This document shows positions 3,331 through 13,393 of a stretch of DNA of 20,408 nt, piece after piece. This stretch comes from a virus (taxonomy: Duplodnaviria > Heunggongvirae > Uroviricota > Caudoviricetes), in the IMG/VR virus record IMGVR_UViG_2737471845_000026, positions 1 through 20,408 of that record; one strand, written 5' to 3'. Each line of letters starts with the position of its first letter. Position 1 is the stretch's first letter. A model generated the notes under the pieces. That model was not told the DNA's origin and did not search any database. It worked only from the letters and a program-made list of their open reading frames with translations. A program made the position numbers and the translations under genes.

Positions 3331-3861
3331 TTATTCTTCTTCATTGGTATTAGGCGTCGGCATTTGTCGTGACAGACCAGATGCTCTGCCCATTATGAAA
3401 ACGGATGCCAATCCTATCAGATCAACAGTAATCAGCGTTCCAGCAAAAACAGTATTACCTCTCCAGGCAAAGACGGTTGCTATCAGCAAAATTAAAAGCG
3501 TTATCGAGTAAGCCATCCATTGACCACGCCTGTCTTTTTTTATTGTTCCCGTGACCGTTGTTTTCTGCATTTCATGACGATGAGCCTGCTCTTTCTCACT
3601 TCTTGCCATTATCCGCTCAGCAGCACCTTCAACTATATCATCGTATTCACGTAGCATTGATGGTGGAGGAAGCGGACCACGGAAATAGGTTTGACTTACT
3701 ATGGCTCTAAATTGAGGTCGCTCGAGGAGCCGTTCAAGAACATTTGGATTTTCAACCAGCTCCCCTTCTATCTCTTTAGCCAGCTGTTCTGAACTCTTAC
3801 ATGAATCGTTATCGTGCAGTGGCAAGCTGGCGTTTAAGTTTTCTTGCTCTGAGTCTTGCAT
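3331..3861 (-). CDS. DUF2335-like predicted membrane protein (176 aa)
   Basis: Central motif SQTYFRGPLPPPSMLREYDDIVEGAAERIMARSEKEQAHRHE followed by two hydrophobic helices (ITLLILLIATVFAW, LITVDLIGLASVFIM); recognised as the DUF2335 family from memory. Confidence 0.6.
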   Translation of the reverse strand: MQDSEQENLNASLPLHDNDSCKSSEQLAKEIEGELVENPNVLERLLERPQFRAIVSQTYFRGPLPPPSMLREYDDIVEGAAERIMARSEKEQAHRHEMQKTTVTGTIKKDRRGQWMAYSITLLILLIATVFAWRGNTVFAGTLITVDLIGLASVFIMGRASGLSRQMPTPNTNEEE

Positions 3862-9537: not shown

Positions 9538-10284
9538 TTACTTCTCAATTCCTGGCTGGATGACATTCGTGCGCCAGCTCTCCCAGTTAAAATTCACCCA
9601 GCGACCACCGTTCATGGTCATGCGGTCCATCACGCGCTCGCCAAGCAGCGTATTCATCGCCGTATGGTTCAGGTTCGTCAGCATCCCGACGCTGTGCATC
9701 GAGGCCGTTCTGCGATCGACTATCTGGTTCAGTGTGACCTGTTCGTTACGCGTATCCCGCTGCATACCAATTTCATCCAGGACAAGCAGGTCAACCTCAC
9801 ACAACCCCTGCAAAAATTTTTCGCCCGAGTTTTTGTTGTCGTAGTTGCCGTGTAACGCCAGCATCACATCCGCCACCGTCACCACAATCACGCTGCGACC
9901 TTTCGCCAGAAGATGGTTGCCGATGGCTGCCGCCAGGTGATTTTTTCCGGTACCCGGCTTACCGCTGAACACAAAATTTGTGCACCCGGTCATCAGCTCG
10001 TCCGCGATGGACTTCGCCTGGCTGAGTGCATGACGCTGTCCGTCGTTCTGCACCAGGTAATTCGCAAACGAACATTTCTGGTGCAACGGCTGGATACCGG
10101 AACGATTCAGAATTTTTTCCACCCGGATCTGGCGATTCTGGCGGTTAATCTCCTCGCTACGCTTTCGCCCTTCTGCAAGCTGCCACTCTCTCCACTCGTC
10201 CACTGTCCGGTACGGCGCGGTTACATGCTGCGGGGCCAGCTTACGGATGCGTTCAAGAACACCACCTGCCGCAATATTTTTCAT
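9538..10284 (-). CDS. DnaC-like replicative helicase loader (IstB/DnaC AAA+ family; Rac YdaV-like), 248 aa
   Basis: Walker [18 protein letters not shown], Walker B LLVLDEIG, and strong resemblance to E. coli DnaC along its length ([41 protein letters not shown]). Confidence 0.9.
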
Positions 10285-10290
10285 AACCCG

Positions 10291-11400
10291 TTACCCCCTG
10301 AATCCCGGCGGAATTTCGGTGTCCGGTTCAGAAATGTGATTCACACAACGCTGGTTGTTCGTGCCGCTTACCGGAATCAACCAGGGGTTTTCAAAATTCC
10401 GGTCCGGTCCAAAAAACGTCGTCGCTCGCTGAACAAATTCCGTTCCCGTTTTCCCGGTAGCCGCCAGGTATCTTGCATAACGCCTCACACCATCCATCAT
10501 GGCCTCTGGTGGCACCCCCTCGCGTAATCTGGCCTTCCAGGCACTGAATGCGGATTTCTTCGGGTTTGCCCCGGCACGCAACGGGTATTCCCGCCAGACC
10601 TGTTCGAACACATCCGGATAATCCACCCGTCCCACAGGCTGCCCGGTGTTTTCCGGGACTACCCGATCGGCTTCCCGCTGAATGGCGGAATCGGCTTCAG
10701 GCTGCTGCAGTTGGTGTGATTGTTCCGGCCTTGCGGTCATCGCCTGCTGCACAGCGCCCGAATCGGCTTTCAGCGCATACGCTGAATCGGCTTCCGGTGT
10801 CGTGCCTGCTGGCTGACCAGAATTTACGGTCTGAACATCCCCTGCCTGGTTCATGGTGTTTTTTTCGCCATGAACCATAGTGTTTTTGTCCTGTTCCTGT
10901 TCTTTCTCCTGCTCCTGTTCTTGGCTTCGAAGCCCCTTAAAAGCCCCTTCGAAGCCCCTTACAGAATTTCGGCTATTATTCCGCCTCACATCCAGATGGA
11001 AATCCGTTTTATATCTGTCGTAAAACGCTGACAGAAAAGCGTTTTCAGGTAATGATGCATACTCATTCCTGACACCTGCACAACGGTTATCGCCAGGCTT
11101 CAACGTTTCCCCAACCTGCCAGGCTGCCATTTCATGGACCCAGACCATCTCTGCATCATGGTCATAGCTACAAAAACCAGCTTCAACAGCCCTTTTAAGC
11201 CCCTTTGAAGCCCCTTCCAGACCAAGCCCGGTTTCATGAGCAAGGTATAAAACTGGCAGGTAATACAAACCCAGCATATTTGCGTGAGGGGATGTCATCA
11301 GGTAAAAAGCAACAACTTGCGCTTCTGCACCCGCCTTTCTAAGTTCTCTCCCCGTTTCTCCCAGCCAGAATCGCGGAGAAACTTTTGCGTAATCACGCAT
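10291..11400 (-). CDS. Replication initiator (O-like/YdaU-like), 369 aa from the ATG at 11400
   Basis: Immediately upstream of the DnaC-like gene (6-nt gap). SD GAGG 6 nt before ATG 11400; the listed ORF extends to ATG 11511 but that start has no SD. Contains a QEQEQEKEQEQ linker and iteron-like repeats. Confidence 0.7.
   Translation of the reverse strand: MRDYAKVSPRFWLGETGRELRKAGAEAQVVAFYLMTSPHANMLGLYYLPVLYLAHETGLGLEGASKGLKRAVEAGFCSYDHDAEMVWVHEMAAWQVGETLKPGDNRCAGVRNEYASLPENAFLSAFYDRYKTDFHLDVRRNNSRNSVRGFEGAFKGLRSQEQEQEKEQEQDKNTMVHGEKNTMNQAGDVQTVNSGQPAGTTPEADSAYALKADSGAVQQAMTARPEQSHQLQQPEADSAIQREADRVVPENTGQPVGRVDYPDVFEQVWREYPLRAGANPKKSAFSAWKARLREGVPPEAMMDGVRRYARYLAATGKTGTEFVQRATTFFGPDRNFENPWLIPVSGTNNQRCVNHISEPDTEIPPGFRG
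10930..10960. repeat. Iteron-like direct repeats (three copies of AAGCCCCTT at 11-bp spacing) inside the O-like gene
   Basis: Plus strand ...GAAGCCCCTTAAAAGCCCCTTCGAAGCCCCTT...; encodes the peptide repeat GFEGAFKGL. Confidence 0.4.
11188..11216. repeat. Second cluster of the same iteron-like motif (two full copies plus one degenerate)
   Basis: Plus strand CAGCCCTTTTAAGCCCCTTTGAAGCCCCTT, about 240 bp from the first cluster and still within the O-like gene. Confidence 0.35.
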
Positions 11401-11478
11401 GGCTACCTCATCTGGTGCCGAACCTTCCTCCGGATATAATCTGTGGTTCCCAATCGACAGAACCAGAGGAGGTTCGAC

Positions 11479-11934
11479 ATGTATTTTTTGAAAAGCCTTT
11501 ATCAGGCTCATGTATTAAATGTTGCAGCAACAAACCGCTGGTGTAATAGCCCCGAAATGCTCCCGGATTACAGAGCCTGGCTGCGCGCAGAAACATACCT
11601 TCGTCTCGACATATTGATTAGCAAACTTCAAAAAGAGACTGCATCCATTCATAACCTTCAGGGTATCGACGCTGTTCGCATTCTGGTATCGCGCCATAGT
11701 GCTCTCTCAATAATTGAAGTGCGTCATCTCTCTTTTTCTGAACTGATTTTCTTGCTTCAACCAGCTCTGGAATCAGCGAATATCCCACCGGAAGTGATCC
11801 AATACCCACCTCATGTTGACGAGCAGTTACAAGATGTGCCATACAACCAGCGTGCTGGATTGACTCCCTGCTCAGAGGCTGAATGGGATCACTCTCTGCT
11901 GAAGAAATACCAAGATTTGTATAATCCTCAATAA
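11479..11934 (+). CDS. Hypothetical protein, 151 aa, divergent from the replication operon; antisense to the 169-aa minus ORF
   Basis: ATG at 11479 preceded by a near-perfect SD AGAGGAGG with 6-nt spacing; reasonable codon usage. Overlaps 11618-12127 on the other strand, so only one of the two is likely real. Confidence 0.4.
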   Translation: MYFLKSLYQAHVLNVAATNRWCNSPEMLPDYRAWLRAETYLRLDILISKLQKETASIHNLQGIDAVRILVSRHSALSIIEVRHLSFSELIFLLQPALESANIPPEVIQYPPHVDEQLQDVPYNQRAGLTPCSEAEWDHSLLKKYQDLYNPQ

Positions 11935-12127
11935 GCCCGGCACACGCTTCTGCATCAGCCAGCTTTATTCTGGTTTCCTTGCGCTGTTCTCTGGCTGACA
12001 AACGCCAGAGCAGCGCATTAACTTTATGTATCAACCACTCTGCCAGCTCCACATCAGATAAACCGCCACGCCAGATGTGCGGACTGTTTTCGTAAACGCT
12101 CAGTGTCAATTTTTTGTCATTACTCAT
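11618..12127 (-). CDS. Hypothetical protein, 169 aa, between the YdaT-like and O-like genes; antisense to the 151-aa plus ORF
   Basis: ATG at 12127 lies 14 nt after the YdaT-like stop and is co-oriented with the operon, but the SD is weak and several AGA codons are present. Ambiguous against 11479-11934. Confidence 0.4.
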   Translation of the reverse strand: MSNDKKLTLSVYENSPHIWRGGLSDVELAEWLIHKVNALLWRLSAREQRKETRIKLADAEACAGLIEDYTNLGISSAESDPIQPLSRESIQHAGCMAHLVTARQHEVGIGSLPVGYSLIPELVEARKSVQKKRDDALQLLREHYGAIPECEQRRYPEGYEWMQSLFEVC

Positions 12128-12140
12128 ATTTATTACCCAA

Positions 12141-12566
12141 TTAATGCACAGCCAGAGTGTTTCCTGCCGGGCCACCACGATTCATCTGATCGAACAGAAC
12201 TATCGCTGATGCAACTAAATCATCGATATCTTTCACCAGCCGTTCCTGCGTCTCCACCAGCTCCCGAAAATAAGCGGAACTGTGGCTGCGCATTCGGGCC
12301 ACCAGCGGAGGCGGCATCGCTTTTTCGATAGCTGGTAACAACGCCTGAATTTTTTTAACCGCGTCAGGGGTATCTTTCTCCAGCCAGCGGAAAATTTTCT
12401 GGGTATTACGGCCCAGGGCTTCCGGATGGCTGTCGTCGAACAGTTCAGGAAACGTCAGACCCAACTCGAAATAAGCCCGGGTTATTTCAGCTGCCGGAAC
12501 TTTTTCACCGTCCGGATATGCCCAGGCATTCATCGCCATGCGGATGTGTTCATGCTTGATTTTCAT
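12141..12566 (-). CDS. YdaT-like protein (141 aa), putative CII-like regulator of the Rac-type immunity region
   Basis: N-terminus MKIKHEHI and size and position (after the cro-like gene, before replication genes) match Rac prophage YdaT as I recall it. Overlaps the upstream gene by 17 nt. Confidence 0.65.
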   Translation of the reverse strand: MKIKHEHIRMAMNAWAYPDGEKVPAAEITRAYFELGLTFPELFDDSHPEALGRNTQKIFRWLEKDTPDAVKKIQALLPAIEKAMPPPLVARMRSHSSAYFRELVETQERLVKDIDDLVASAIVLFDQMNRGGPAGNTLAVH

Positions 12567-12861: not shown

Positions 12862-12889
12862 ATGATACTACATAAAGTAGAATTTGCAA
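12862..12889 (-). promoter_or_regulatory. PR-like promoter with an operator palindrome in the spacer
   Basis: Minus-strand -35 TTGCAA (plus 12884-12889), 16-nt spacer, -10 TATCAT (plus 12862-12867). The spacer contains the palindrome CTAC-N5-GTAG (12868-12880). Confidence 0.5.
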
Positions 12890-12934
12890 CTACGCAAAAT
12901 AGAAATGACGAATCAAGGTAACTGCTTTAATCTT

Positions 12935-12947
12935 CTACATATGGTAG
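12935..12947. promoter_or_regulatory. Second operator-like palindrome CTACATATGGTAG, overlapping the repressor ATG
   Basis: Same CTAC-N5-GTAG half-sites and same GAA flank as the site at 12868-12880; centred 67 bp away. Confidence 0.4.
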
Positions 12948-13393
12948 AAAACGCACATAAACATCGCGCATTCGCAACAAGACTTAAGTCAGAAATGGAT
13001 AGAAAAAACAAATCCATCAAAGACTTAAGCTTATCCACGGGCGTCACATACGAAATGGCGCGGCGCTACACCCTAGGCACAGCTAAACCACGCGACGAAA
13101 AACTCGAACGAATAGCAGAATTTCTGGGAGTTGAACCTGCATGGCTGGAATACGGTCAGCTAACAGAGAAAGGAATTGAACCAGCAGAAGATTCATTTGT
13201 AACACAAAGATCTGGTTCCAATAGCAATGGTGAATTTACTGAGTTAAGTGAAGATGAAAAGCGACTGATACGAACGTTTCGGGAGTTTCCACCAGTTGAA
13301 GCCAAGAATATGCTCCTGGCTTTTGAGATGAGGCTCAAGAAACTTTACGATTTCTACGAGAAATACGCCAGCACCCCACCACCTTCTGAGTGA
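12941..13393 (+). CDS. Prophage repressor, XRE/HTH family (RacR/cI-like), 150 aa from ATG 12941
   Basis: HTH KSIKDLSLSTGVTYEMARRYTLG; divergent from the cro-like gene with operator palindromes in between. Start is ambiguous (ATG 12941 without SD, ATG 12905, or TTG 12884). Confidence 0.75.
   Translation: MVENAHKHRAFATRLKSEMDRKNKSIKDLSLSTGVTYEMARRYTLGTAKPRDEKLERIAEFLGVEPAWLEYGQLTEKGIEPAEDSFVTQRSGSNSNGEFTELSEDEKRLIRTFREFPPVEAKNMLLAFEMRLKKLYDFYEKYASTPPPSE

What the first reader, a model, noticed from the sequence alone, without database searches (positions are those of the whole stretch)
11401..12127. Mutually antisense long ORFs in the replication operon, the plus-strand one with a near-perfect SD
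Between the YdaT-like and O-like genes, a co-oriented 169-aa minus ORF with a weak RBS overlaps a 151-aa plus ORF whose ATG has AGAGGAGG at 6-nt spacing and reasonable codon usage. One is probably a shadow of the other. If the plus ORF is real it is a divergent gene embedded in the rightward operon, with oop-like antisense potential.
Basis: seen in the sequence. Interest (0 to 1): 0.45.

Follow-up and report, generated by a model that had tools for sequence, protein, structure and literature searches.

The report
Conserved antisense-overlapping prophage gene pair
The two long ORFs on opposite strands are most likely both real genes, a convergent pair sharing 317 bases of DNA that is inherited together in prophages of E. 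coli, Salmonella, Klebsiella and Serratia; this is a rare, well-controlled case of one stretch of DNA encoding two proteins.

Summary
A 151-aa plus ORF (11479-11934) has AGAGGAGG 6 nt before its ATG. It overlaps a 169-aa minus ORF (11618-12127) by 317 nt.

The reading that one ORF is a shadow of the other is not supported.
- The plus ORF is the PGAP-annotated ECs1072 family (NF033230). It has full-length homologues down to about 30% identity and an AlphaFold model with pLDDT 90.
- The minus ORF (phrog_8304) has 35 relatives in six or more genera. Its 64-codon non-overlapping N-terminus shows a clean third-position substitution pattern.
- In the overlap, substitutions are spread evenly over codon positions.
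- Each frame stays open more often than the partner protein predicts (combined p about 1e-6 and 3e-8).
- Both frames are equally conserved in the overlap. In the single-coding parts the antisense frame keeps only about half the identity.
- dN/dS is 0.42 for the plus frame and 0.54 for the minus frame.
- All 22 diverged loci found through the minus family carry the convergent plus partner.

The pair is a cassette behind a conserved leader, and that leader also precedes unrelated cargo genes. Function is unknown. I infer a separately transcribed accessory gene that reads against the early operon. Selection on the minus C-terminal half is real but weaker than on the plus gene.

The parts
11479..11934 (+). 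Plus gene, ECs1072-family phage-associated protein, 151 aa
   Evidence: It matches NF033230 at 104.5 bits against a cutoff of 70 and PGAP annotates it in E. coli genomes. Homologues of 144-161 aa reach about 30% identity. The AF2 model has pLDDT 90.2 and pTM 0.86. Codons 2-46 show a coding substitution pattern.
11465..11472 (+). Shine-Dalgarno AGAGGAGG, 6 nt before the plus ATG; part of the invariant AGGAGGTTCGACATG (11467-11481)
   Evidence: Read directly from the sequence. The motif is invariant across 15 diverged loci and 80 viral contigs.
11618..12127 (-). Minus gene, phrog_8304 family, 169 aa, co-oriented with the early operon
   Evidence: It matches phrog_8304 at 395 bits. The family has 35 members of 148-197 aa in Escherichia, Salmonella, Klebsiella, Serratia, Yokenella, Izhakiella and Enterobacter. 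The N-terminal 63 codons show a third-position substitution pattern. Homologues carry strong SDs such as CAGGAGGATATATG. The AF2 model is helical with pLDDT 73.
11618..11934 (.). 317-nt antisense (3'-3') coding overlap, register sas11
   Evidence: Substitutions are flat across codon positions and plus third-position change is roughly halved. OLGenie-style dN/dS is 0.42 for plus and 0.54 for minus. Both frames are equally conserved, unlike the single-coding controls.
11935..12127 (-). Non-overlapping N-terminal part of the minus gene (aa 1-64; motif LTLSVYENSPHIWRGGLSDVELAEWLI)
   Evidence: Differences at minus codon positions 1/2/3 are 2/0/12 (L051 vs L052) and 17/14/36 (window vs L002). The motif is invariant or nearly so in 30 family members.
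11413..11481 (.). Conserved leader and inverted repeat between the plus ATG and the O-like ATG: boxes TGGTGCCGAACCT (11413-11425) and AGGAGGTTCGACATG (11467-11481)
   Evidence: The RNA hairpin folds at -27.6 kcal/mol on the plus strand and -35.9 kcal/mol on the minus strand (z = -2.5 and -3.2). The same leader precedes unrelated cargo genes in 80 viral contigs.
11412..11440 (+). Candidate sigma-70 promoter of the plus gene: CTGGTG, 17-nt spacer, TATAAT (11435-11440)
   Evidence: Read from the sequence. The tool's scan missed it because only 2 of 6 bases match in the -35 hexamer. The A2/T6 pattern of the -10 is kept in most but not all leader variants. This is inferred and has not been shown.
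11980..12017 (+). Strong hairpin 46 nt after the plus stop, followed by TTAACTTTAT: a possible terminator of the plus transcript
   Evidence: The 116-nt stretch around it (11930-12045) folds at -35.7 kcal/mol (z = -3.6). The hairpin is kept in the E. coli group only, there is no canonical U-tract, and the promoter/terminator scan did not call it.
12141..12566 (-). ydaT-like (CII analogue) gene just upstream of the minus gene in the operon; 13 nt separate its stop from the minus ATG
   Evidence: PF06254 and phrog_163. The CII-analogue role of YdaT comes from PMC8630535 and PMC9986795.
10291..11400 (-). O/DnaD-like replication gene, with its real start at 11400
   Evidence: The phrog_1701 alignment begins at residue 38 of the 406-aa ORF. 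PGAP places the CDS start at the equivalent of 11400.

Best explanation
Both ORFs are genuine protein-coding genes. They form a conserved two-gene cassette of convergent genes whose 3' parts are written on opposite strands of the same 317 bp.

The minus gene belongs to the early rightward operon (cro/ydaS, ydaT, minus gene, O, P). It is probably translated by coupling to ydaT, which ends 13 nt upstream.

The plus gene (ECs1072 family) reads against that operon. It sits behind a conserved leader with a near-consensus SD and a candidate promoter of its own, so it behaves like a separately expressed accessory ('moron'-type) gene.

Shown here:
- both genes are coding;
- they are always inherited together;
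- the overlap and its register are conserved across genera;
- there is constraint on both frames, stronger on the plus frame.

Inferred:
- Because the two transcription units converge and overlap, their expression should be mutually antagonistic, through transcriptional interference and sense-antisense RNA pairing.
- The plus protein would then be made mainly when pR is repressed (lysogen), and the minus protein when pR fires.
- The two proteins may act on each other or on the same process.

The biochemical function of both proteins is unknown. Neither has a fold or family relative.
For: Evidence that the plus gene is real:
- It matches NF033230 and is annotated by PGAP.
- Full-length homologues exist.
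- The AF2 model has pLDDT 90 over the whole length.
- Differences at codon positions 1/2/3 in codons 2-46 are 1/1/8 and 14/7/29.
- It stays intact and homologous over its full length in L006, where the minus ORF is absent.

Evidence that the minus gene is real:
- The N-terminal 63 codons show 2/0/12 and 17/14/36 differences.
- The family has 35 members of at least 148 aa in six or more genera, with conserved motifs inside the overlapped part as well (Y69, L72, G73, S75, P113, L122).
- Homologues have strong SDs.

Evidence from the overlap:
- Differences are flat across positions, 9/8/11 and 34/35/41 of 103. In the L006 control they are 51/41/68.
- P(minus frame open | plus protein) is 0.0004-0.39 per lineage, Fisher combined 1.1e-6. 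The reverse test combines to 2.9e-8.
- For the E. coli group, dNN/dSN = 0.42 (CI 0.23-0.75) and dNN/dNS = 0.54 (CI 0.29-1.02). The minus-frame signal disappears (1.08) in comparisons with L006.
- Antisense-frame identity divided by own-frame identity is 0.94-1.08 in the overlap and 0.45-0.55 in the single-coding parts of the same genes.

Evidence for co-inheritance:
- 22 of 22 diverged viral loci found through the minus family carry an intact convergent plus-family ORF that overlaps by 257-392 nt.
- The register is the same in Klebsiella, Izhakiella, Serratia and Salmonella.

Evidence for a cassette:
- E. coli copies are nearly clonal, and only the leader is shared with other prophages.
- The same leader precedes at least 12 unrelated cargo families.

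Expression: an ECs1072 signal is reported in uninduced Sakai cultures in a microarray table (PMC2241611). This is weak evidence.
Against: There is no direct evidence of transcription or translation for either ORF.

Selection on the minus C-terminal half is weaker than on the plus gene and only borderline in some tests:
- dNN/dNS has p of about 0.03 in the E. coli group, 0.06 in deep lineages, and is not significant in the Klebsiella-type cluster.
- Plus-gene 4-fold sites are only modestly slower in the overlap (42% vs 57% differ, p = 0.2).

Frameshifted minus genes exist in L055/L056 and L042, and a shorter one in L053. The minus C-terminus varies in length from 148 to 197 aa.

The promoter's -35 is poor, and the -10 is not conserved in the Salmonella-island leaders. 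No conserved terminator was found.

The proposed mutually exclusive expression and any protein-protein relation are inference only. PADLOC, Pfam, PDB and fold searches give nothing.
Confidence: 0.66

Rival explanations
1. Both genes are real, but only the N-terminal 60 or so residues of the minus protein matter. Its C-terminal 105 or so codons are a run-on into the antisense cassette. That stretch is kept open, and translated, to keep ribosomes on the operon mRNA while it crosses the cassette. This would protect against Rho-dependent polarity or decay before the O gene. The amino-acid sequence of the run-on itself would not be selected.
For: - Constraint on the minus frame in the overlap is weaker and borderline.
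- C-terminal length is variable, and natural frameshift variants keep the N-terminus.
- Extensive antisense overlaps recur with unrelated cargo behind the same leader. Examples are the type-2 pair and the phrog_4753 gene of 97 aa, which has a 117-aa antisense ORF overlapping 273 nt.
Against: - Openness alone does not explain why the minus-frame translation is as conserved as the plus protein in the overlap (ratio 0.94-1.08, against 0.45-0.55 in controls).
- It does not explain dNN being lower than dNS.
- It does not explain invariant residues in the overlapped part across 30 members.
- Most members end at the same alignment position (about 148-151 aa).
- The AF2 model gives pLDDT above 80 for residues 61-100 and 121-140.
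Confidence: 0.2
2. Only the plus gene is real, which is PGAP's view. The minus ORF would be a shadow ORF that gene callers sometimes pick up.
For: PGAP annotates only the plus gene in about 450 E. coli genomes. The minus RBS in E. coli is weak.
Against: - 64 codons of the minus ORF lie outside the plus gene and evolve as minus-strand coding sequence.
- The family is conserved in six or more genera, with strong SDs.
- The open frame is statistically unexpected given the plus protein.
Confidence: 0.04
3. Only the minus gene is real and the plus ORF is its shadow.
For: PHROGs holds a family for the minus ORF and none for the plus ORF. The minus ORF is co-oriented with the operon.
Against: - The first 46 plus codons lie outside the minus gene and show plus-strand coding substitutions.
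- L006 keeps the plus gene without the minus ORF.
- The AF2 model has pLDDT 90.
- The SD and ATG are invariant.
- dNN/dSN is 0.42 and 0.18.
Confidence: 0.02
4. The even, reduced substitution rate in the overlap reflects a constraint on the nucleotide sequence itself, such as RNA structure or sense-antisense pairing, and not on two proteins.
For: A flat 1:1:1 pattern and equal identity in both frames are also what a purely nucleotide-level constraint would give.
Against: - Changes that are nonsynonymous in both frames are rarer than changes synonymous in one frame (dNN 0.096, dNS 0.175, dSN 0.23).
- Only one indel occurs, a whole codon, across 11 sequences that differ by up to about 40%.
- Both frames stay open.
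- No Rfam family matches.
Confidence: 0.05

Closest known systems
Antisense overlapping genes described in bacteria (EHEC nog1, ano, asa, pop and others; Pseudomonas aeruginosa olg1/olg2)
   Same: Two proteins are encoded on opposite strands of the same DNA. Evidence for purifying selection comes from OLGenie-type tests (PMC9927249, PMC8850804, PMC7457138).
   Different: Those cases are young ORFs embedded inside a conserved 'mother' gene, usually confined to one species or genus. Here two genes of similar size converge. Each has its own non-overlapping, well-conserved N-terminal part, and the pair with its register is kept across several Enterobacterales genera at about 35% protein identity. 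Expression is shown for the published cases and not for this pair.
Phage lambda oop antisense RNA (between cII and O)
   Same: It is a leftward transcription unit with its own start signals, embedded between the CII-type regulator gene and the replication gene. It reads against the pR operon.
   Different: oop is a 77-nt non-coding RNA complementary to the 3' end of cII (my own knowledge). Here the unit encodes a 151-aa protein. It overlaps a different gene (phrog_8304 family) and not ydaT. No Rfam match was found.
Prophage morons and accessory-gene hotspots
   Same: A conserved junction (leader with candidate promoter and strong SD) is followed by variable, unrelated cargo in otherwise similar prophages. 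The cargo includes a BssS-family protein. The orientation is independent of the surrounding operon.
   Different: The cargo is usually a convergent two-gene unit whose second gene belongs to the host operon's strand, and the two often overlap extensively. No known defence or conversion function could be assigned.
NCBIfam NF033230 (ECs1072 family) and PHROG phrog_8304
   Same: The two ORFs are members of these two families.
   Different: Each database holds only one of the two genes. Neither records that the families are encoded on opposite strands of the same DNA.

Membership tests
NCBIfam NF033230, ECs1072 family phage-associated protein (plus ORF) | HMM score above the curated cutoff (70 bits) over the full profile | tested here: met
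   104.5 bits, E = 4.9e-30, residues 4-145 on profile positions 3-141 of 142. PGAP uses this name at the same locus.
PHROG phrog_8304 (minus ORF) | Full-length HMM match | tested here: met
   394.8 bits, residues 1-168 on profile positions 1-168 of 169.
Antisense overlapping protein-coding gene pair | Two ORFs on opposite strands with a non-trivial overlap (more than 90 nt) | tested here: met
   317 nt in the window and 257-407 nt in homologous loci.
Antisense overlapping protein-coding gene pair | Purifying selection on the plus frame within the overlap | tested here: met
   dNN/dSN is 0.42 (CI 0.23-0.75), 0.65 and 0.18. Minus-gene 4-fold sites differ at 22% in the overlap against 55% outside (p = 6e-4).
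Antisense overlapping protein-coding gene pair | Purifying selection on the minus frame within the overlap | tested here: inconclusive
   In favour: dNN/dNS is 0.54 (CI 0.29-1.02, p about 0.03); open-frame retention has p = 1e-6; the identity ratio is 0.94 against 0.45 in controls. Weak or non-significant: 0.81 (p = 0.06), 0.42 (not significant), and the plus-gene 4-fold site test (p = 0.2).
Antisense overlapping protein-coding gene pair | Both ORFs transcribed and translated | not testable with these tools
   The only trace is a microarray value for ECs1072 in uninduced Sakai (PMC2241611). The supplement of the EHEC overlapping-gene survey has no entry for ECs1071 to ECs1073.
Shadow ORF (non-coding frame kept open by the partner's sequence) | No conservation or coding signature independent of the partner gene | tested here: not met
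   Each ORF has a non-overlapping part with its own third-position substitution pattern. Each frame is open more often than its partner protein predicts.
Lambda oop-type antisense RNA | Short non-coding RNA with its own promoter and intrinsic terminator, complementary to the 3' end of the cII-type gene | tested here: not met
   The unit encodes a conserved 151-aa protein. It ends 206 nt before ydaT. There is no Rfam hit and no conserved terminator.
Moron (autonomous promoter-gene-terminator unit) | Own promoter and terminator | tested here: inconclusive
   The candidate promoter is CTGGTG, 17-nt spacer, TATAAT at 11412-11440. Its -10 is consensus in the E. coli leaders but not in all variants. 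The hairpin at 11980-12017 occurs only in the E. coli group. The consensus scan reported neither.
Moron (autonomous promoter-gene-terminator unit) | Present or absent, or replaced, between otherwise related prophages | tested here: met
   The same leader and the same flanking ydaT and replication genes occur with different cargo in L062 and L063. At least 12 cargo families follow the leader in 80 viral contigs.
Known anti-phage defence or toxin-antitoxin systems | Match to a PADLOC or Pfam model of a known system | tested here: not met
   No PADLOC hit for six family members. No Pfam hit for 49 members.

The most novel reading that the evidence does not exclude
The pair is a self-contained toggle or 'function plus antidote' module. 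The plus protein would be made in the lysogen from a portable leader and promoter that recruits many different accessory genes into the early operon of lambdoid and related prophages. The minus protein would be made only when the early operon fires. Firing would also silence the plus gene through convergent transcription. Physical overlap of the two coding sequences would enforce co-inheritance and co-evolution of the two C-terminal domains. Under this reading the conserved leader marks a previously undescribed antisense cargo hotspot between the cro/cII-type genes and the replication genes.
Probability: 0.2. Interest if true: 0.85.

Novelty: new variant of a known kind. Interest (0 to 1): 0.62.

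Why it matters
Long antisense coding overlaps in bacteria and their phages are disputed. Most candidates are young and poorly conserved, and they lack an internal control.

This pair supplies one. Each gene has a single-coding part and a dual-coding part, so the effect of the second frame can be measured within the same alignment. The arrangement is also kept over genus-level divergence.

There is a practical side. Annotation pipelines call only one of the two genes: PGAP calls the plus gene in E. coli, and other callers pick the minus gene elsewhere. A conserved phage protein family is therefore missing from most genome records.

The conserved leader with exchangeable cargo also points to an unstudied accessory-gene hotspot inside the immunity and replication region of STEC and other enterobacterial prophages.

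Tried and rejected
- DNA-level comparison within E. coli and against phage genomes. The locus is nearly clonal (at least 99% identical in about 450 genomes), so it was of no use for dN/dS.
- A scan of GTDB species-representative genomes with the plus family found nothing.
- The metagenome scan gave only near-identical copies.
- Pfam, PADLOC and PDB sequence searches returned nothing meaningful.
- The Rfam scan gave only a chance-level snoRNA match.
- The consensus promoter and terminator scan found nothing relevant near the genes.
- Homology between the type-1 pair and the 'type-2' pair (L063, L006b) could not be established. hhalign gave E = 7e-4 with 26% probability for the minus side and E = 0.05 for the plus side.
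- OLGenie-style analysis in the Klebsiella-type cluster had too few substitutions to test the minus frame.
- Literature searches found no paper on this pair. ECs1072 appears only in one microarray table.
- I considered and rejected an intrinsic terminator formed by the leader hairpin plus the TATTTTTT run in codons 2-4. The T-run is not conserved outside the E. coli group.
Full report
**1. What is in the sequence**

The plus ORF runs from the ATG at 11479 to the stop ending at 11934 (151 aa). AGAGGAGG lies at 11465-11472, six bases before the ATG.

The minus ORF runs from the ATG at 12127 to the stop at 11620-11618 (169 aa). It has only GGGT-type SD remnants. Its ATG lies 13 nt after the stop of the ydaT-like gene (12141-12566, PF06254).

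The two ORFs share 11618-11934, which is 317 nt. Plus codon positions 1, 2 and 3 face minus positions 1, 3 and 2.

The O/DnaD-like replication gene starts at 11400, not at 11511. The PHROG alignment begins at residue 38 of the long ORF, and PGAP places the start at the equivalent of 11400. The replication gene therefore does not overlap the plus ORF, and a 78-bp divergent intergenic region remains.

The context is a lambdoid immunity and replication region. It contains a cI-type HTH gene, a YdaS/Cro-type gene, a YdaT/CII-type gene, the pair, an O-like gene and a DnaC/P-like gene. YdaS and YdaT have been shown experimentally to be Cro and CII analogues in CP-933P (PMC8630535, PMC9986795).

**2. 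How databases treat the two ORFs**

PGAP annotates only the plus ORF, as 'ECs1072 family phage-associated protein'. It matches NF033230 at 104.5 bits against a cutoff of 70. This holds in about 450 E. coli genomes that are at least 99% identical over this stretch.

PHROGs holds a family for the minus ORF, phrog_8304, which it matches at 395 bits. PHROGs has no family for the plus ORF. Each resource has therefore chosen a different strand.

**3. Both ORFs have diverged, full-length homologues**

The plus protein has relatives of 144-161 aa down to about 30% identity. The family is small: 24 representatives at 50% clustering. It has conserved motifs along its whole length, namely PDYRAWLRAETYLRLD, LSF.E.L and LPPCSE.EWD.

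The minus protein has 35 relatives of 148-197 aa in Escherichia, Salmonella, Klebsiella, Serratia, Yokenella, Izhakiella and Enterobacter. Conserved motifs lie in the non-overlapping N-terminus (VTLTVFK.SPHIWAGGL...LA.WLI.KANA). They also lie inside the overlapped part (Y..LG.S....DPI.PLS.EAI and P.GYSLLPDL).

**4. The two genes always travel together**

Several loci carry the minus-family gene in the early operon, often directly after cro. These are the Salmonella islands (L002-L005, L053), Klebsiella (L058), Izhakiella (L059), Serratia (L060) and another Salmonella prophage (L061). In each, a plus-family ORF converges on it, overlaps by 266-407 nt, and uses the same codon register.

All 22 diverged viral contigs retrieved through the minus family carry an intact convergent plus-family ORF that overlaps by 257-392 nt.

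There are exceptions in the other direction:
- L006 and L007 have the plus gene without any minus partner.
- L055, L056 and L042 have frameshifted minus genes.
- L053 has a minus gene that is 57 nt shorter.

**5. Coding signatures outside the overlap**

In plus codons 2-46, differences at codon positions 1/2/3 are 1/1/8 (window vs L051) and 14/7/29 (window vs L053).

In minus codons 2-64, they are 2/0/12 (L051 vs L052) and 17/14/36 (window vs L002).

Each gene therefore evolves as coding sequence on its own strand where it is alone. This already excludes a pure shadow ORF on either strand.

**6. Inside the overlap**

*Substitution pattern.* Differences are spread evenly over codon positions: 9/8/11, 16/13/17 and 34/35/41 of 103. 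Change at the plus third position is roughly halved relative to the plus-only part. Only one indel, a whole codon, occurs among 11 sequences. In comparisons with L006, which lacks the minus ORF, the ordinary pattern returns (51/41/68).

*Open-frame test.* I randomised synonymous codons of the plus protein and asked how often the minus frame stays open over the observed length.
- Window: 0.8% of trials.
- L052: 0.7%.
- L055: 0.04%.
- L061: 0.3%.
- L059: 1%.
- Other lineages: 10-39%.
- Fisher combined over 10 lineages: p = 1.1e-6.
- The reverse test, over nine lineages, combines to p = 2.9e-8.
- L006 behaves like the simulations.

*dN/dS for overlapping frames.* An OLGenie-style count for the sas11 register in the E. 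coli group gives dNN 0.096, dNS 0.175 and dSN 0.23.

| Data set | Plus-frame dN/dS | Minus-frame dN/dS |
|---|---|---|
| E. coli group | 0.42 (CI 0.23-0.75) | 0.54 (CI 0.29-1.02, about 3% of bootstraps at or above 1) |
| Deep lineages | 0.65 | 0.81 (p = 0.06) |
| Comparisons with L006 (no minus ORF) | not estimable (dSN saturated) | 1.08 |
| Klebsiella-type cluster | 0.18 (p = 0.002) | 0.42 (not significant; too few changes) |

*Internal control.* Over 21 lineage pairs, identity of the sas11 antisense translation is 0.45-0.55 of own-frame identity in the single-coding parts of these same genes. In the overlap the ratio is 0.94-1.08. A codon-randomisation version of the test gives about twice the expected identity in either direction.

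*Four-fold sites.* Minus-gene synonymous sites differ at 55% outside the overlap and 22% inside (p = 6e-4). Plus-gene synonymous sites differ at 57% and 42% (p = 0.2).

*Reading.* Both frames are constrained, and the plus frame clearly more strongly.

**7. Structure and function searches**

The AlphaFold2 model of the plus protein is a compact helical domain, confident over the whole length including the overlapped two-thirds (pLDDT 90.2, pTM 0.86).

The model of the minus protein is moderately confident (pLDDT 73). It has a long helix (residues 25-70) and further helices at 87-102 and 113-144, and pLDDT is above 80 in most of the overlapped part.

Neither protein has a relative by fold, in Pfam, in PDB sequences or in PADLOC. 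Their biochemical function is therefore unknown.

**8. The cassette and its leader**

Within E. coli, only window 11406-11487 is shared with other prophages. This stretch carries two invariant boxes, TGGTGCCGAACCT (11413-11425) and AGGAGGTTCGACATG (11467-11481).

The boxes form a long inverted repeat. The hairpin is more stable on the minus-strand RNA (-35.9 kcal/mol, z = -3.2) than on the plus-strand RNA (-27.6 kcal/mol, z = -2.5). Several pairs are G-U only on the minus strand. There are few compensatory changes, because the outer stem hardly varies.

Between the arms lies TATAAT (11435-11440), 17 nt after CTGGTG (TTGGTG in other genera). This is a candidate promoter that would start the plus mRNA inside the loop and leave the SD free. 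The -10 keeps A2 and T6 in most leader variants but not in the Salmonella-island ones.

The exact leader occurs in 81 viral contigs (80 carried into the cargo and leader tallies) and precedes at least 12 unrelated cargo families:
- the ECs1072 type;
- a 'type-2' overlapping pair, both genes of which are annotated in phage vB_Apl-pPE4;
- phrog_4753, a 97-aa gene with a 117-aa antisense ORF overlapping 273 nt;
- a BssS-family protein;
- a non-overlapping 83-aa and 98-aa convergent pair;
- several singletons.

The locus therefore behaves as an accessory-gene hotspot. Its plus-strand cargo reads against the early operon.

**9. Mechanism**

*Shown.* There are two real genes, they are co-inherited, the overlap is conserved, and both frames are constrained.

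*Inferred.*
- The minus gene is translated as part of the pR-type operon, probably by coupling to ydaT.
- The plus gene is expressed from its own leader.
- Because the units converge and overlap, firing of pR should reduce plus expression, and plus transcription should oppose read-through into the replication genes. The two products would then mark alternative states, lysogen and early lytic.

A microarray table lists ECs1072 among genes that change at the transition to stationary phase in uninduced Sakai (-2.13-fold). That is compatible with expression in the lysogen (PMC2241611).

*Main rival (about 20%).* Only the minus N-terminal domain matters, and its C-terminal half is kept open so that the operon mRNA stays translated while crossing the antisense cassette.
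- In favour: the weaker constraint, the variable ends, the natural frameshift variants, and the recurrence of overlaps with unrelated cargo.
- Against: the equal conservation of both frames, dNN below dNS, and invariant residues in the overlapped part.

**10. Comparison with what is known**

The pair fits the definition of an antisense overlapping gene pair. It differs from published bacterial cases, which are young ORFs embedded in a mother gene, by its convergent two-domain layout and its conservation across genera (PMC9927249, PMC8850804, PMC7457138).

It sits where lambda has oop, but it is not an oop-type RNA.

It resembles a moron or hotspot cargo. Its promoter and terminator remain unproven.

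I found no paper describing this pair.

**11. Verdict**

The 'shadow' interpretation is rejected, and the 'real divergent gene embedded in the operon' interpretation is accepted. The finding becomes a conserved dual-coding cassette.

My confidence that both are genes is about 0.9. My confidence that the overlapped half of the minus gene is itself under protein-level selection is about 0.7. My confidence in the proposed expression logic is about 0.3.

Noticed in passing
window 11413-11481 (also L002-L006, L042, L053, L055, L058-L063, L064-L143): A highly conserved leader, TGGTGCCGAACCT ... AGGAGGTTCGACATG, forms a long hairpin that is more stable on the minus-strand RNA. The same leader precedes at least 12 unrelated cargo gene families in 80 viral contigs, so it looks like a portable junction or hotspot.
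   Followed up: partly
window 11413-11425, minus strand AGGTTCGGCACCA: The invariant box resembles the T-loop and acceptor 3' end of a tRNA (GGTTCG...CACCA), the kind of sequence used as a recombination target. I did not test whether this bears on cassette exchange.
   Followed up: no
window 10291-11511 (-): The mechanical 406-aa ORF overstates the O/DnaD-like replication gene. PHROG alignments and PGAP place its start at 11400 (363 aa), so it does not overlap the plus gene.
   Followed up: yes
L063 2575-3208 (phage vB_Apl-pPE4 gp13/gp12); L006 4554-5187: A second, at best distantly related convergent pair (151 aa and 137 aa, overlap 236-239 nt, same sas11 register) sits behind the same leader at the same place. 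Both genes are annotated in the phage record.
   Followed up: partly
L065 and 17 similar viral loci: The cargo gene phrog_4753 (97 aa) is almost wholly covered (273 nt) by a 110-117-aa antisense ORF. That ORF's N-terminus (MSEKITIKYDG) recalls the minus family. I did not test whether it is coding.
   Followed up: no
L055/L056 around 3490-3502; L042 around 3568: The minus genes here carry frameshifts that separate the conserved N-terminus from a still-open C-terminal frame. These could be recent pseudogenisation, assembly error or recoding.
   Followed up: no
L006 4001-5187: A type-1 plus gene (GTG start, degenerate leader box) has no minus partner and is followed in tandem by a complete type-2 pair. 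It served as a natural control.
   Followed up: partly
window 11980-12017 (+): A 14-15 bp GC-rich hairpin lies 46 nt after the plus stop, inside the minus N-terminal coding region. It is conserved in the E. coli group only and could be a terminator.
   Followed up: partly
window 9913-10527 (+): A 204-aa ORF lies antisense to the DnaC/P-like and O-like genes. It is probably a shadow ORF, but I did not examine it.
   Followed up: no
L001 4632-5539 (E. coli PV15-279): In many O157 genomes the same cassette lies next to a paaR2-paaA2-parE2-type locus (HTH, RelB and ParE genes). The window instead carries a different cI-type gene at 12884-13393, which shows mosaicism of the immunity region around a constant cassette.
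   Followed up: no
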